Below, piece by piece: positions 17,818 through 62,247 of a stretch of 64,000 bases of DNA; the first letter of the stretch is position 1, and each line of letters opens with the position of its first letter. Source of the stretch: Escherichia phage dhabil; sequence record MN850621.1. The stretch is one strand, 5' to 3'. The notes beneath the pieces are model-generated. The model did not search any database. It saw nothing but the letters and a program-made list of their open reading frames with translations, and was not told the origin of the DNA. The position numbers and the translations under genes were made by a program.

Positions 17818-18432
17818 TCAGTAAGAAAGAACGGAAAGATTCCATAATGTATAATCTTGCCATCCACAAACTCTCTCAATAGAGTCTACGCGTAGCGTAG
17901 TTCCCGCAGGGAACATCATCTCATCTTCATCGTTTACTAATTGCAAGTTTGAAGTACGAGTTATTTCTGGATATGGCCCGTTGAACTCTTCGGGAGGAGC
18001 GCCACAAATCATTTTAAAGATTGCTTCCTGGTAATCAAATGCAAAAGGTGCATCATTAATACAGAAAATATTTTTGGTTCCGTAAAAATTATATGAAGCA
18101 AAGTTACGGGCCACCTTAAAATCTTTAGAGAAGCTCATTACTCTGTCAAATTCAATTGTGGCACCAACACATCCTACCGATTCGAGGTATTTCAAAGTTT
18201 TCTTAGAAATTCCACGGTACAGTTTGTCAGGCACTACAGAAGTTAGATTCTTACGAATGATTTTGTTCAAAGTTTCTTGGATAGAATCAGGTTTATTTTC
18301 CATGCACTGCCAGAGGACACTCTGTTCTAAATCAGAGTACTGCCCGTCTATTTCACCCTGAATGTTTTCACGGAAATCATCACATTTAACATTGTCATAG
18401 AACTCTGATAATTTATGATTTGGATATAACAT
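17818..18432 (-). CDS. modA: ModA-like ADP-ribosyltransferase
   Basis: 204 aa; R-S-E pattern (LYRGIS, SFSKD, DEDEMMF); paralog of the adjacent gene; position as T4 modA. Confidence 0.55.
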   Translation of the reverse strand: MLYPNHKLSEFYDNVKCDDFRENIQGEIDGQYSDLEQSVLWQCMENKPDSIQETLNKIIRKNLTSVVPDKLYRGISKKTLKYLESVGCVGATIEFDRVMSFSKDFKVARNFASYNFYGTKNIFCINDAPFAFDYQEAIFKMICGAPPEEFNGPYPEITRTSNLQLVNDEDEMMFPAGTTLRVDSIERVCGWQDYTLWNLSVLSY

Positions 18433-18446
18433 ATTATTCTCCTCAG

Positions 18447-18487
18447 TTGATAGAAAGATAGTACCACAAGCATCCTTGCCTGTAAAC
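18447..18487 (-). promoter_or_regulatory. T4-early-type promoter cassette variant
   Basis: Minus GTTTAC (18482-18487), TACTAT (18457-18462), spacer about 19. Confidence 0.4.
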
Positions 18488-19056
18488 TAAAAATCTAACA
18501 TTTTTAAATGAATTATTTTGTACTCGATTTCGTATGGGTCTCTTTTGATAGTTTCGATTTCCACAATCTCGAACCGTGATAGACTAGAGACCATGAACTC
18601 ACATTCAGTTTCGACCATATCATAGAGGTCTATCCGGGTTTCATCTATTTCAAGTTCGTCCACATTCCCTGCAAGAACAAGGTCGATAGCATGATTGTAG
18701 TAGTCGAAAATGAACGGTGCATTCCTGAGACTTAAGATGGTTTTAGTTCCATATTCCCACGCCCCTGCGAACTGACGAGCCTGAGAGTATTGTGTACTAA
18801 AAGAAGTAACACGGCCGGGAGACCACTGGCATCCGACAGAAAGAACTTCAAGTTGCTCAAGTTCTCTTGGAGTAATCCCACGATAAAGCTCTACCGGAAC
18901 GACCGAAGTAACATGCTTACGAACTAGTTTGTCTAGGTCATAATGGAAGTTAGGGTCTTTTTTGGCATCCAGACATTTCTCTAACAACGCTTGTTCAGAT
19001 TTTGAAAATTTAGAATTGATTCGGTCTTGATAAAGACATTTTTGTTCGATGTTCAT
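18487..19056 (-). CDS. modB: ModB-like ADP-ribosyltransferase
   Basis: 189 aa; LYRGIT, SFSTQ, ECEFMV motifs parallel to the 17818-18432 paralog. Confidence 0.55.
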   Translation of the reverse strand: MNIEQKCLYQDRINSKFSKSEQALLEKCLDAKKDPNFHYDLDKLVRKHVTSVVPVELYRGITPRELEQLEVLSVGCQWSPGRVTSFSTQYSQARQFAGAWEYGTKTILSLRNAPFIFDYYNHAIDLVLAGNVDELEIDETRIDLYDMVETECEFMVSSLSRFEIVEIETIKRDPYEIEYKIIHLKMLDF

Positions 19057-23640: not shown

Positions 23641-24081
23641 TTAACCTCGGTTCATAAAGGCATTAAAAATCTGGTCGTCGATTGAATAAACCGGAGCTTC
23701 CAGAATTTTCAACAGACTGTTTTTGATATACTTGCTAGGGATATCCATATTAACGGCATCATTCAATTCGTTGTCCCGGAGGATATCTTTAAATTCAAAC
23801 CCTTCAAACTCAACCTTGTCAGGAATACCATCAGAGAAAAAATAAACCAATTGGTGCATTGTATTACATGAAAATAATTTAGACTTCACTGCAATAAGTT
23901 CTTCCCAGTGGTTTAATTCTCTATTAAGAAGTTTATGGGCAAATATAATCCTATCATCACTATCAACAAGAAAATAACCTAGGTACTGGTGGTCGTCGCT
24001 CCAAAACATCCTGTATGCTTGTGCATTTGGATTTTTACAACGAAGCTTTTTGATAACTAAATTTCTGTTAATCTTATTCAC
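23641..24081 (-). CDS. hypothetical protein, 146 aa
   Basis: Starts at GTG 24079-24081 with SD AGAGGTGA; no in-frame ATG near the start. Confidence 0.4.
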   Translation of the reverse strand: MNKINRNLVIKKLRCKNPNAQAYRMFWSDDHQYLGYFLVDSDDRIIFAHKLLNRELNHWEELIAVKSKLFSCNTMHQLVYFFSDGIPDKVEFEGFEFKDILRDNELNDAVNMDIPSKYIKNSLLKILEAPVYSIDDQIFNAFMNRG

Positions 24082-25012: not shown

Positions 25013-25330
25013 TTAGATTTCCTCACAGAAGGCCCATTCAGCGTGATAAACCGTAGCGCCTTTGGTATCATTTAAACAAACCACATCTACCGGAGCAATT
25101 ACACGATAAAGACGAGGTTCTCCTCCCACCGAACGAGCAGCTCGTCCAGCATAAATCTTAGCCAAACCAATGTCCTCAGTAAAGAACACACGATTTAGGT
25201 TTTTCTTACGACCAGTTTCAGACAGAACTCCTGTTTCCTCAGGAGGACAAAGCATATTACCAATATTAGCAACACTACAACTTCCATGATAATACACTTT
25301 ATATTCTGCTTTACAGTCGATGGTTTTCAT
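25013..25330 (-). CDS. hypothetical protein, 105 aa
   Basis: ORF-track start 25342 lies in the promoter; moved to ATG 25328-25330 with SD GGAGAA; contains YYHGS motif. Confidence 0.4.
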   Translation of the reverse strand: MKTIDCKAEYKVYYHGSCSVANIGNMLCPPEETGVLSETGRKKNLNRVFFTEDIGLAKIYAGRAARSVGGEPRLYRVIAPVDVVCLNDTKGATVYHAEWAFCEEI

Positions 25331-25334
25331 TTTG

Positions 25335-25383
25335 TTCTCCAAGTTGATAGGTCTATAGTATCATGCCTACAGGAGAAGTAAAC
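25335..25383 (-). promoter_or_regulatory. promoter cassette with RBS-pairing arms
   Basis: Exact 20-mer core; minus GTTTAC (25378-25383), N17, TACTAT; arms ttctcc/ggagaa. Confidence 0.6.
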
Positions 25384-60514: not shown

Positions 60515-60700
60515 TTAAAGACTATTCACATAAGCAATTAATTCGTTTTCTTTCGCATCAAATCTATTAGCAAATTCTTCCTGATGTTCGGCATCTATTG
60601 GGCCGTATTCATCGTAAAAAGCGTTTGCTTCTGTATGCTCATCCAAAAGCTCATGGATAAGCTCAAACAATCTACTTTTCTGACTAATACTTAAACTCAT
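60515..60700 (-). CDS. hypothetical acidic protein, 61 aa
   Basis: ATG at 60698-60700. Confidence 0.4.
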   Translation of the reverse strand: MSLSISQKSRLFELIHELLDEHTEANAFYDEYGPIDAEHQEEFANRFDAKENELIAYVNSL

Positions 60701-60903
60701 TTAGGTTCACCATATCGCACAAATTTAGGATGTTCGCAATAACCAGAATGAAAACCTTCACCCTTATGATTAGAGCAGCCTTTATTAGAGCAATACCACC
60801 AGTAATCATATTCGCAATTCATTTCATCGTTGCATAAAGCTGCGATTACAGGCCATTCACATTTTTCACATTTGGCCGTTTTAAGAATTCGCACTTGACT
60901 CAT
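60697..60903 (-). CDS. Cys/His-rich putative metal-binding protein, 68 aa
   Basis: CEKCEW...CNDEMNCEYDYWWYCSNKGCSNHKGEGFHSGYCEH. Confidence 0.45.
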   Translation of the reverse strand: MSQVRILKTAKCEKCEWPVIAALCNDEMNCEYDYWWYCSNKGCSNHKGEGFHSGYCEHPKFVRYGEPK

Positions 60904-61354
60904 AATCCACCACTATTAAATCAATATCAGGAGTAAACATGTCGATTAATTTAGAAACCTTGTCCCAATCACCACCAGCAATACCACAACCTATGCGCGG
61001 AATATAAATTCTTGGTTTAAACAAAAGGTCATTTGCTTGTAGATTTAATTCTATCATACAGTTTACTAAAGCACCGTAATCAAGATTAGGGCCTGGTTCG
61101 TATTGGGTGTACAAATTATAACACATACCAAACCCAGTAGGCTTATGTTTAAAAACAATAGACATGTCACCTAATTTATCACGAGAACCATATTCAGTAG
61201 TGGTCTTATCAATTTCTAATATTTTAGGATAGGCCCTTGCTAATTGACCAGCCACCCCTGAACCCATAGTATGAAAACAGTTGCACCCGTGTGCAATAAT
61301 ATTACCTTGAAGAAACAGGGCGACGATATCGCCCTTAATATAATCAATAATCAT
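60881..61354 (-). CDS. macrodomain protein, TARG1/DarG-like ADP-ribosyl hydrolase fold
   Basis: 157 aa; GDIVALFLQGNIIAHGCNCFHTMGSGVAGQLARAY and PRIGCGIAGGDW parallel the TARG1 motifs (LAHCISEDCRMGAGIA and PRIGCGLDRLQW) as I recall them. Confidence 0.6.
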   Translation of the reverse strand: MIIDYIKGDIVALFLQGNIIAHGCNCFHTMGSGVAGQLARAYPKILEIDKTTTEYGSRDKLGDMSIVFKHKPTGFGMCYNLYTQYEPGPNLDYGALVNCMIELNLQANDLLFKPRIYIPRIGCGIAGGDWDKVSKLIDMFTPDIDLIVVDYESSANS

Positions 61355-61707
61355 TTAGAGTTTAGCCCTCGGTTGTAAGAGTCAACGAGTCTGTCTACCA
61401 TAGACGCGCACATTTCTTTGTACTTTTTATCAGACGGAACACATTCAGTAACGTTTAGACGTTGCTCGTATCTTTTAGAAAGAGTTTTCTCTTTCATTCG
61501 GCGATGCTCGACGTCGTTCTGTCCATCTTTAAAAGCAGCTGTTATTTTTGAACTGAATTCAATAACGCATTCAGTATTACTCGGATGACAATAATCTTTT
61601 GCTGTACGGGTGGCATACTCGACAATTGAATTATTTGTATCATCAACCTGTGATGCTAATACTCCCGGAGCAATCAACATAAGCGCTATAGTCATCTGTT
61701 TAATCAT
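61351..61707 (-). CDS. secreted protein, 118 aa
   Basis: Signal peptide MIKQMTIALMLIAPGVLAS; four Cys in the mature part. Confidence 0.45.
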   Translation of the reverse strand: MIKQMTIALMLIAPGVLASQVDDTNNSIVEYATRTAKDYCHPSNTECVIEFSSKITAAFKDGQNDVEHRRMKEKTLSKRYEQRLNVTECVPSDKKYKEMCASMVDRLVDSYNRGLNSK

Positions 61708-62247
61708 TTAATATACCGCCTCAAACATCTTTTTAGATTTTAGGTAATTGGCCTTTTCTAGAACTTCGGAAGCATATTTACTGCCTGCTTTGACATTCCA
61801 GCCCGCATTATAAGAAGCAATCGCTTTTCTCAGGTCACCTTTGTGAACATCAATCCAATAAGACAGCTCAATGTAGGCCCAAGAGGCACTGTTCTGTCGT
61901 TTTTGGACCATGCGAATTATTTCTTTGTCTGACATCTTCCAACCTACCTGTTGAACACGACTTCTTAACGTAGGCAAGTAATTTTGGAACATGCCATAAG
62001 CATGGTGCTTATCTTTATTTAAACCTTGATTAATTCCAGCAGATGATTCCTGCCATAATAATCCGGCCATTATATATCCTAATCCTTTTTGATTAGGGTT
62101 TTCTTTGAACTTTCCCGACTTTTGGTATTGTTCACCGAAAGCATACGCATAATGTAAATTATCGAGTTGTTCATTACTGAAAGTAGGCTCTACGCTATAG
62201 GCAGACATACTAACTGTCAATAGTAAAGTGGCTAATACTTTTTTCAT
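61708..62247 (-). CDS. periplasmic lytic-transglycosylase-like (SLT domain) protein
   Basis: 179 aa; signal peptide; SLT signature QESSAG...YGMFQ (ES catalytic pair and GxxQ). Confidence 0.55.
   Translation of the reverse strand: MKKVLATLLLTVSMSAYSVEPTFSNEQLDNLHYAYAFGEQYQKSGKFKENPNQKGLGYIMAGLLWQESSAGINQGLNKDKHHAYGMFQNYLPTLRSRVQQVGWKMSDKEIIRMVQKRQNSASWAYIELSYWIDVHKGDLRKAIASYNAGWNVKAGSKYASEVLEKANYLKSKKMFEAVY

What the first reader, a model, noticed from the sequence alone, without database searches (positions are those of the whole stretch)
60881..61354. TARG1/DarG-like macrodomain next to tk: candidate ADP-ribosylation eraser
The 157-aa protein has the two glycine-rich loops of the TARG1/DarG macrodomain subfamily (AHGCNCFHTMGSGVAGQ and PRIGCGIAGGDW). 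That subfamily removes ADP-ribose from proteins and, in DarG, from thymidine in DNA. A phage copy could reverse DarT-type ADP-ribosylation of phage DNA by host toxin-antitoxin defences, remove ADP-ribose marks, or degrade ADP-ribose-derived signalling molecules. The same window encodes two ModA/ModB-like ADP-ribosyltransferases (17818-19056), so a writer and a possible eraser are both present.
Basis: partly seen in the sequence, partly recalled or inferred. Interest (0 to 1): 0.6.

Follow-up and report, generated by a model that had tools for sequence, protein, structure and literature searches.

The report
Phage macrodomain tk.4/AdfM, anti-DarT2 eraser
This gene is the T4 tk.4 (adfM) counterpart in a T4-like coliphage: a small enzyme that most likely strips ADP-ribose off phage DNA so the host DarTG2 defence fails, a role already shown genetically for T4, so the finding is correct but not new.

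Summary

A 2025 preprint showed that T4 tk.4 is the only T4 gene required on DarTG2 hosts and named it adfM.

One correction: the catalytic Lys of TARG1 (K84) and DarG (K80) is an invariant Gln (Q84) in this phage family, and TARG1 D125 is Ala. This is the active-site pattern of Streptomyces SCO6735. That enzyme cleaves thymidine-linked ADP-ribose from ssDNA and needs its Gln85, Asn27 and Gly128. All three equivalents are invariant here.

The protein has no DarT-binding C-terminal domain and no DarT neighbour. The proposed writer/eraser link to ModA/ModB is unsupported. In passing: this tk.4 allele is a recombinant, closer to the Tequatrovirus allele than to its own genus.

The parts
60881..61354 (-). 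tk.4 / adfM ortholog: 157-aa stand-alone macrodomain protein
61244..61294 (-). Loop 1, residues 21-37 (AHGCNCFHTMGSGVAGQ). H22, G23, N25, C26, G33 and A35 are invariant in 80 homologs. N25 (61280-61282) is the equivalent of SCO6735 Asn27 and DarG Asn22.
   Evidence: Conservation counts. HMM alignment to SCO6735, DarG and TARG1. The SCO6735 N27S mutant is almost inactive (PMC9411070).
61103..61105 (-). Codon CAA = Gln84, in the motif N-L-Y-T-Q. It occupies the position of the catalytic Lys of TARG1 (K84) and DarG (K80) and of Gln85 of SCO6735.
   Evidence: Codon read directly from the sequence. Gln in 80 of 80 homologs. Profile alignment to TARG1. MAFFT and HMM alignments to DarG and SCO6735. 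SCO6735 Q85A is inactive.
60965..61000 (-). Loop 2, the phosphate-binding loop, residues 119-130 (PRIGCGIAGGDW). G124 is the equivalent of SCO6735 Gly128. A126 sits at the position of TARG1 Asp125 and SCO6735 Ala130.
   Evidence: The SCO6735 loop RIGCGLAGG and its Gln85/Ala130 replacements are described in PMC5087735.
61351..61354 (-). ATGA overlap between the stop codon of vs and the start codon of tk.4; the same 4-nt overlap exists in T4
   Evidence: ORF coordinates. T4 coordinates: vs 61386-61733, tk.4 60922-61389.
60881..60903 (-). 23-nt overlap of the tk.4 3' end with the start of the downstream zinc-binding ORF (60697..60903). It is also the breakpoint where JS10 carries an extra ~200-nt ORF.

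Best explanation
The gene is the CLB_P2 ortholog of T4 tk.4, recently named adfM (anti-DarT factor macrodomain). It encodes a stand-alone macrodomain. It sits in the tightly packed, co-directional run regB, vs.1, vs, tk.4 ... tk. When a host DarT2 toxin attaches ADP-ribose to thymine in single-stranded phage DNA and blocks replication, this enzyme binds the ADP-ribose in the cleft formed by its two glycine-rich loops. It then hydrolyses the thymine-ribose bond, releasing ADP-ribose and restoring normal DNA. Chemically it works like Streptomyces SCO6735 rather than like DarG or TARG1. It has no catalytic lysine. An invariant Gln84, held in place by Asn25, positions the distal ribose and the transition state, and a bound water does the chemistry. 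It lacks DarG's C-terminal DarT-binding domain, so any protection would depend on the macrodomain alone.

Shown here: the ORF, the fold, the class, the orthology and the active-site residues. Shown elsewhere: T4 tk.4 is required on DarTG2 hosts, and SCO6735 cleaves thymidine-linked ADP-ribose and needs Gln85, Asn27 and Gly128. Inferred: that this particular protein protects CLB_P2 from DarTG2, and that it does so by hydrolysis.
For: Orthology: 57% identity to T4 Tk.4 over the full length, E=1e-68. The gene order rI.-1, rI, rI.1, tk, tk.2, (tk.3), tk.4, vs, vs.1, regB is the same. There is one macrodomain locus per genome or window.
Genetics in T4: tk.4 was the only significant hit on DarTG2, and a clean knockout was sensitised.
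Biochemical precedent for the Gln-type site: SCO6735 hydrolyses DarT-made dT-ADPr on ssDNA and rescues E. coli from DarT. Q85A is dead, N27S almost dead and G128E reduced. The equivalents Q84, N25 and G124 are present in 80 of 80 homologs.
Class-wide activity: TARG1, DarG and SCO6735 all act on T-ADPr and U-ADPr.
Against: No experiment exists on this protein, and none on any Tk.4-type protein in vitro; the T4 paper itself only infers hydrolysis. The two lysines that position DNA in SCO6735 (K34, K89) are not conserved here (S32, G88), and the mobile loop is about 6 residues shorter. SCO6735's Val25 is an invariant Gly23 here. Identity to T4 Tk.4 is only 57%, and the central 40 residues of this allele have been exchanged by recombination, so specificity could differ. 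Catalytically dead SCO6735 still inhibits DarT in vitro, so protection need not be purely enzymatic.
Confidence: 0.7

Rival explanations
1. It counters DarT2 without catalysis. It would do so by binding and inhibiting DarT2 directly, or by shielding or sequestering ADP-ribosylated sites.
For: Catalytically inactive SCO6735 Q85A inhibited DarT activity in vitro more strongly than DarG K80A or TARG1 K84A. The other known phage factor, ICP1 AdfB, acts by direct interaction. The T4 data are genetic only.
Against: The protein lacks the DarG C-terminal domain that mediates DarT binding: it is 157 aa, and the DarG profiles are matched only at positions 2-145 of 329 and 1-147 of 338. Every residue needed for SCO6735 catalysis is invariant across 80 homologs, which is what one expects of an enzyme. 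The PhiKZ macrodomain AdfM does act enzymatically.
Confidence: 0.1
2. It is mainly a small-molecule enzyme, as the historical 'phosphatase / A1pp motif' annotation says. It would be a Poa1p-like ADP-ribose-1''-phosphate phosphatase or an O-acetyl-ADP-ribose deacetylase, clearing NAD-derived metabolites or defence signals.
Against: The best-scoring Poa1p sequence is the F152A mutant. Wild-type Poa1p has Phe where this family has Ala126, so the second loop differs. No pathway that makes Appr-1''-p was identified in this window. T4 genetics link tk.4 specifically to DarTG2. Nothing was tested for signalling molecules.
Confidence: 0.08
3. It is the eraser for the phage's own ADP-ribosyltransferases (the ModA/ModB-like pair at 17818-19056, and Alt), tuning or recycling marks on host proteins.
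For: Two Mod-like ARTs are indeed encoded in the same window. SCO6735 can remove Glu/Asp-linked mono-ADP-ribose from proteins.
Against: By established knowledge, T4 Alt, ModA and ModB modify arginine. No member of the TARG1-like class is reported to cleave Arg-ADPr in the papers read. The genes are about 42 kb apart. Expressing writer and eraser together would be futile. The T4 tk.4 phenotype appears only with DarTG2.
Confidence: 0.03
4. It has a wider nucleic-acid role. Besides thymine in DNA, it would remove uracil-linked ADP-ribose from RNA or marks made by other, still unknown ART defences. This is compatible with the best explanation rather than exclusive of it.
For: TARG1, DarG and SCO6735 all reverse U-ADPr on ssRNA. 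Homologs occur in 2754 of 50,697 phage records across many host genera, which may be more than DarTG2 alone would explain.
Against: T4, which carries Tk.4, is still strongly restricted by the mRNA adenine ADP-ribosyltransferase CmdTAC, so not every RNA mark is reversed. No U-ADPr-based defence system appears in the papers read.
Confidence: 0.15

Closest known systems
T4 Tk.4 = AdfM (anti-DarT factor macrodomain; bioRxiv 10.1101/2025.11.20.689424)
   Same: It is the syntenic ortholog: 57% identity over the full length, the same size (155 vs 157 aa), and the same ATGA overlap with vs. It has the same H-G-C-N-C and T-Q motifs.
   Different: 43% of residues differ. The phosphate loop is IGCGIAGGDW here and IGAGIGKGNW in T4. 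The window's allele is of the RB7/PP01 type (91% to RB7) rather than the T4/T2 type. Its function has not been tested.
Streptomyces coelicolor SCO6735 and Bacteroides BT1257 (Gln-type subgroup of the TARG1/ALC1-like macrodomains; PDB 5E3B, 2FG1, 2AFC)
   Different: Identity is only about 28-30%. SCO6735's Val25 is Gly23 here. Its DNA-positioning Lys34 and Lys89 are Ser32 and Gly88 here. The mobile loop is about 6 residues shorter. Loop 1 reads HGCNCFHTMG rather than HVCNDLGGWG.
DarG (DarG2) antitoxin macrodomain (PDB 5M3I, 5M31, 7OMU)
   Different: The catalytic Lys80 is replaced by Gln84. There is no C-terminal DarT-binding domain. There is no adjacent darT. The NCBIfam score is 27.6 bits against a cut-off of 250.
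PhiKZ gp104, also named AdfM (Cell Rep 2026, PMC13309987)
   Same: It is a phage-encoded stand-alone macrodomain that counters DarTG2. For PhiKZ, removal of ADP-ribose from DarT2-modified DNA was shown in vitro.
   Different: It belongs to a different clade. PhiKZ gp104 keeps the DarG-type motif F-P-T-K-D-N-W with the lysine (sequence). BLASTP to the window protein gives only short local matches, E=8e-4 over 33 aa, and it is the weakest of the references against the family profile at 35 bits.
Human TARG1/OARD1 (PDB 4J5R)
   Same: It is the top Foldseek hit, E=5e-10, TM 0.73/0.81. The P-R-I-G-C-G loop is the same. TARG1 also cleaves T-ADPr and U-ADPr.
   Different: The K84/D125 catalytic dyad is absent here, replaced by Q84/A126. 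Identity is about 20-24%.
Yeast Poa1p, ADP-ribose-1''-phosphate phosphatase (PDB 6LFQ-6LFU)
   Different: Wild-type Poa1p has Phe152 where this family has Ala126. The central part does not align by sequence. Its substrate is a small molecule.

Membership tests
Macro domain superfamily (Pfam PF01661) | Score above the Pfam gathering threshold | tested here: met
   32.1 bits against a cut-off of 22, E=1.2e-7, covering residues 22-136 and nearly the whole model.
Macro domain superfamily (Pfam PF01661) | Three-layer alpha/beta/alpha fold with a central mixed sheet and two Gly-rich loops lining the ADP-ribose cleft | tested here: met
TARG1-like / ALC1-like macrodomain class | Closest relatives by sequence and structure are class members, ahead of the MacroD, PARG, viral and macroH2A types | tested here: met
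TARG1 proper | Catalytic Lys84 / Asp125 dyad | tested here: not met
   Gln84 and Ala126 align with K84 and D125. Gln is present in 80 of 80 homologs.
DarG (DarG2) antitoxin | 'TK' motif with catalytic Lys80 | tested here: not met
   N-L-Y-T-Q aligns with N-F-P-T-K of Mtb and Taq DarG. The DarG sequences were verified against PDB 5M3I and 5M31.
DarG (DarG2) antitoxin | C-terminal DarT-binding domain (protein of about 330-360 aa) | tested here: not met
   The protein is 157 aa. The PADLOC DarG profile is matched at 2-145 of 329. The NCBIfam DarG equivalog scores 27.6 bits against a cut-off of 250, matched at 1-147 of 338.
DarG (DarG2) antitoxin | Encoded in an operon with darT | tested here: not met
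   The neighbours are vs and a phage zinc-binding ORF, in T4 gene order. A bacterial homolog (Pelagimonas) also has no DarT neighbour.
SCO6735/BT1257 subgroup (Gln-type) | Gln at the TARG1-K84 position and Ala at the TARG1-D125 position within an R-I-G-C-G-x-A-G-G loop | tested here: met
   Q84, A126 and RIGCGIAGG. The subgroup definition comes from PMC5087735 and PMC9411070.
SCO6735/BT1257 subgroup (Gln-type) | Residues shown by mutagenesis to be needed for activity: Asn27, Gln85, Gly128 | tested here: met
   N25, Q84 and G124 are each present in 80 of 80 homologs.
SCO6735/BT1257 subgroup (Gln-type) | Val/Ile25 ('SCO6735-specific feature'), the DNA-positioning Lys34 and Lys89, and the extended mobile loop | tested here: not met
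   G23 is invariant. S32 (Ala in most homologs) and G88 occupy the lysine positions. The loop after Gln84 is about 6 residues shorter than in BT1257 or SCO6735. The phage family is therefore best seen as a sister group, not a member in the strict sense.
T4 Tk.4 / AdfM family | Orthology to T4 tk.4 (full-length similarity plus conserved position) | tested here: met
   57% identity over 152 aa, E=1e-68. It lies between tk.3 and vs, as in T4, JS10 and RB7.
T4 Tk.4 / AdfM family | Protects the phage from DarTG2 | not testable with these tools
   This is known only for T4. It needs a CLB_P2 deletion mutant and plaque assays.
Poa1p-like Appr-1''-p phosphatases | Loop-1 His23 and Ser30, and loop-2 Phe152 (the residues mutated in PDB 6LFS, 6LFT and 6LFU) | tested here: inconclusive
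   H22 is present. T29 sits at the Ser30 position (Thr in 46 of 80 homologs). A126 replaces Phe152. The activity itself is not testable here.

The most novel reading that the evidence does not exclude
The T-even Tk.4-type 'AdfM' may not be a captured DarG antitoxin. It may instead be a separate, lysine-free (Gln-type) lineage of thymine/uracil ADP-ribose hydrolases, related to the stand-alone bacterial SCO6735/BT1257 enzymes and convergent in role with the DarG-like PhiKZ AdfM. Under this reading its central segment (residues ~38-78) is exchanged between phage genera because it determines which DarT2 variants or which nucleic-acid substrates (DNA thymine or RNA uracil) are countered.
Probability: 0.3. 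Interest if true: 0.5.

Novelty: already known. Interest (0 to 1): 0.27.

Why it matters
The result assigns a specific, testable counter-defence role to a gene present in about 5% of sequenced phage records (2754 of 50,697). Two points here go beyond the papers read. First, the T-even AdfM has the lysine-free SCO6735-type active site. It therefore belongs to a different macrodomain lineage from the DarG-like PhiKZ protein that carries the same name. This matters for naming, for mechanism and for predicting which phages resist DarTG2. Second, the gene is a recombination hot spot between T4-like genera, which fits a locus under defence-driven selection. Neither point changes the basic picture.

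Tried and rejected
(1) I submitted the alignment containing the T4 sequence for structure prediction.
(2) I queried the PDB with only the C-terminal 102 residues to bring DarG into the printed alignments. That failed because DarG dropped to rank 10. I solved it by querying with the Mtb DarG macrodomain recalled from memory, which proved 100% identical to 5M3I and also returned the Taq and Thermosipho DarG sequences.
(3) I first assumed T4 gene 61.2 was AdfN. The paper shows that AdfN is 30.3 and that 61.2 is AdfA. I did not look for AdfN in the window; by synteny it should lie outside it.
(4) The MAFFT alignment misplaced BT1257 around the Gln. The HMM alignment and the published structural alignment agree on Gln82.
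(5) The promoter scan was uninformative: 11 sites found against 11.5 expected. The two terminator-like hairpins inside the 5' end of tk.4 are probably chance.
(6) Pfam gave nothing for the Mod-like proteins. PHROGs and tblastn settled that point.
(7) A weak Arr-ms hit for ORF 25013..25342 found no support in the PDB sequence search.
(8) I checked whether a bacterial homolog sits next to DarT. It does not.
(9) I considered a role against the mRNA ADP-ribosyltransferase CmdTAC. I rejected it as unlikely because T4, which has Tk.4, is strongly restricted by CmdTAC.

Full report
OBSERVATION.
The quoted loops are residues 21-37 and 119-130. The protein scores 32.1 bits on Pfam Macro (cut-off 22, E=1.2e-7). 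It matches PHROG 335 ('phosphatase') at E=1e-70. No other macrodomain is encoded in the window.

IDENTITY OF THE WINDOW AND THE GENE.
The protein is 100% identical to a translated stretch of Dhakavirus CLBP2 (OZ035781.1). The 6-kb surroundings are 99.6-99.7% identical to that record and to Escherichia phage CLB_P2 (OL770107.1). In OL770107.1 this CDS is already annotated 'macro domain protein'.

The gene order is rI.-1, rI, rI.1, tk, tk.2, Zn-binding ORF, tk.4, vs, vs.1, regB. This is the order found in T4, JS10 and RB7. The protein is 57% identical to T4 Tk.4 over 152 residues without gaps (E=1e-68). The stop codon of vs overlaps the tk.4 start (ATGA), as in T4. The gene is therefore the tk.4 ortholog. 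Homologs occur in 2754 of 50,697 phage records, across Escherichia, Klebsiella, Salmonella, Pseudomonas, Vibrio, Acinetobacter and other host genera.

FOLD AND CLASS.
An AlphaFold2 model built from 80 homologs has mean pLDDT 95.2 and pTM 0.90.
- Foldseek against the PDB puts TARG1, BT1257, Poa1p and the DarG macrodomains first, at E=5e-10 to 3e-8 and TM about 0.7-0.8.
- There is then a clear drop to 13.7 or less for coronavirus, alphavirus, PARP, MacroD and PARG macrodomains.
- A family profile finds the same set by sequence: BT1257 9e-19, TARG1 7e-17, SCO6735 2e-15, Poa1p 1e-14, Mtb DarG 4e-12.
- The DarG models of PADLOC (E=3.4e-7) and NCBIfam match, but only over their N-terminal macro part. 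The NCBIfam score is 27.6 bits against a cut-off of 250.

I verified reference sequences against the PDB: TARG1, Mtb and Taq DarG, and BT1257 and SCO6735. The profile-to-TARG1 alignment, a MAFFT alignment and an HMM alignment of all references agree on the following.
- The motif N-L-Y-T-Q(84) aligns with Y-L-I-T-K(84) of TARG1 and with N-F-P-T-K(80) of DarG.
- Ala126 in R-I-G-C-G-I-A-G-G aligns with TARG1 Asp125.

The catalytic lysine of TARG1 and DarG, and the aspartate of TARG1, are therefore both absent. Gln84 is present in 80 of 80 homologs, T4 Tk.4 included. H22, G23, N25, C26, G33, A35, N80, Y82, P119, G122, G124 and W130 are also invariant.

Gln plus Ala is exactly the pattern described for SCO6735 (Gln85/Ala130) and BT1257 (Gln82/Ala128). 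Those two proteins were defined as a separate subgroup with a different mechanism (PMC5087735).

WHAT THAT SUBGROUP DOES.
SCO6735 removes thymidine-linked ADP-ribose from DarT-modified ssDNA. It rescues E. coli from DarT and protects S. coelicolor from DarT. Q85A and Q85E are inactive, N27S is almost inactive and G128E is reduced. The proposed mechanism has Gln85, locked by Asn27, positioning the distal ribose while a backbone-held water protonates thymine O2 (PMC9411070). TARG1, DarG and SCO6735 all act on T-ADPr and also on U-ADPr in RNA.

The window protein keeps the equivalents N25, Q84 and G124. It does not keep three other SCO6735 features: Val25 (Gly23 here), the DNA-positioning Lys34 and Lys89 (Ser32 and Gly88 here), and the longer mobile loop. 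Its loop 1 (H-G-C-N-C-F-H-T-M-G) looks more like yeast Poa1p (H-S-C-N-C-N-G-S-W-G). I therefore treat the phage family as a sister lineage of SCO6735/BT1257 within the class, not as a strict member.

WHAT IS KNOWN ABOUT THE ORTHOLOG.
A transposon-sequencing study of T4 (bioRxiv 10.1101/2025.11.20.689424, November 2025) found tk.4 as the single significant hit on a DarTG2-expressing host. It showed that a clean deletion sensitises T4, and it named the gene adfM. The authors inferred enzymatic removal of ADP-ribose from structural similarity to Mtb DarG, but they did not test it. Earlier work had shown that T2 and T4 resist DarTG2 independently of the NADAR protein AdfN (PMC11825919).

Independently, the PhiKZ macrodomain gp104 was also named AdfM and was shown in vitro to remove DarT2-made ADP-ribose from DNA (PMC13309987). 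Translating the published construct shows the DarG-type F-P-T-K-D-N-W motif. It has only marginal similarity to the window protein. Two different macrodomain lineages therefore carry the same name.

MOST LIKELY MECHANISM.
The tight co-directional packing of regB, vs.1, vs, tk.4 ... tk suggests co-transcription, but this is an inference and the promoter scan was not informative. I propose that the protein removes ADP-ribose from thymine on single-stranded phage DNA modified by host DarT2, using a Gln84/Asn25-dependent, lysine-independent mechanism like that of SCO6735. It has no DarT-binding domain and no toxin partner, so it would be an orphan eraser.

The fold, the class, the residues and the orthology are shown here. 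The anti-DarTG2 role is shown for T4 only. Hydrolysis is shown for SCO6735 and for PhiKZ AdfM, not for any Tk.4-type protein. My confidence is about 0.7.

RIVALS.
(a) Protection by binding DarT2 rather than by catalysis. Dead SCO6735 does inhibit DarT in vitro, but the strict conservation of catalytic residues argues for an enzyme.
(b) A Poa1p-like small-molecule phosphatase or deacetylase, the historical annotation. The second loop differs from wild-type Poa1p, and the genetics point to DarTG2.
(c) An eraser for the phage's own Mod and Alt enzymes. The two Mod-like genes exist. However, by established knowledge those enzymes make arginine-linked marks, which this class is not known to cleave.
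(d) Extra substrates such as U-ADPr RNA. This is possible and not exclusive. T4's sensitivity to CmdTAC shows that adenine-linked mRNA marks are not rescued.

NOVELTY.
The gene, its macrodomain nature and, for the T4 ortholog, its anti-DarTG2 role are already in databases and in the literature. Two modest additions come from this work: the recognition that the T-even AdfM has the SCO6735-type, lysine-free site, and the mosaic allele described below.

SIDE OBSERVATION.
Every neighbouring gene (rI.-1, rI, tk, vs, vs.1, regB) is 99-100% identical at protein level to Dhakavirus JS10. tk.4 is only 77% identical to JS10 but 91% identical to Tequatrovirus RB7, whose flanking genes are only 25-69% identical to the window's. 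The divergent stretch is roughly residues 38-78. JS10 also has an extra ORF of about 200 nt immediately 3' of tk.4. tk.4 has therefore been exchanged between genera.

Noticed in passing
window 60881-61354 (mainly codons ~38-78, about 61120-61243) and the junction at 60900-60905: The tk.4 allele is mosaic. Flanking genes are 99-100% identical (aa) to Dhakavirus JS10. tk.4 is 77% identical to JS10 and 91% identical to Tequatrovirus RB7, whose flanks are only 25-69% identical to the window's. JS10 carries an extra ~200-nt ORF right 3' of tk.4 that this phage lacks. This suggests inter-genus recombination at a counter-defence locus.
   Followed up: partly
window 23641-24081 (-): A 146-aa ORF sits in the position of T4 gene 61.2 (AdfA, anti-DarT factor A). 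It shares only the last 14 residues (100% identical) with T4 gp61.2. Pfam AdfA (PF23813) matches only profile positions 197-211, below threshold, and the ORF belongs to a different PHROG (8539). The body of AdfA appears to have been replaced in this phage.
   Followed up: partly
window 25013-25342 (-): A 109-aa ORF lies just upstream of dmd, where T4 has no gene between dmd and gene 41. It has a weak, sub-threshold match to Pfam Arr-ms, rifampin ADP-ribosyltransferase (E=0.029, 15 bits against a cut-off of 25), and a Y-H-G motif. It belongs to PHROG 2110 (unknown function) and has no PDB sequence match. It is a possible small ART-like protein, but unproven.
   Followed up: partly
window 17818-18432 (-) and 18487-19056 (-): Two tandem Mod-like ADP-ribosyltransferase paralogs lie next to srd. 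They are 33-37% identical to T4 ModA/ModB, and both are closer to ModB than to ModA. They match PHROG 832 at E=2e-41 and 7e-38 and have no Pfam hit.
   Followed up: yes
window 60697-60903 (-) and 60515-60700 (-): The two small ORFs between tk.4 and tk are a Cys-rich 'Phage zinc binding domain' protein (PF23895, E=5e-29) and a DUF7438 protein. The latter is 51% identical to T4 Tk.2 and has a weak, sub-threshold match to an antitoxin-type family (Unstab_antitox, E=0.007).
   Followed up: no
literature, not the window: The name AdfM is used for two unrelated-looking macrodomain lineages. T4 Tk.4 has the Gln-type T-Q motif. PhiKZ gp104 has the DarG-type T-K motif.
   Followed up: yes
L006 6001-6459 (Pelagimonas phthalicica chromosome): A bacterial homolog (41% identical to the window protein) is a stand-alone gene among housekeeping-type genes, with no DarT or prophage genes within 6 kb. 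This resembles the orphan status of SCO6735.
   Followed up: partly
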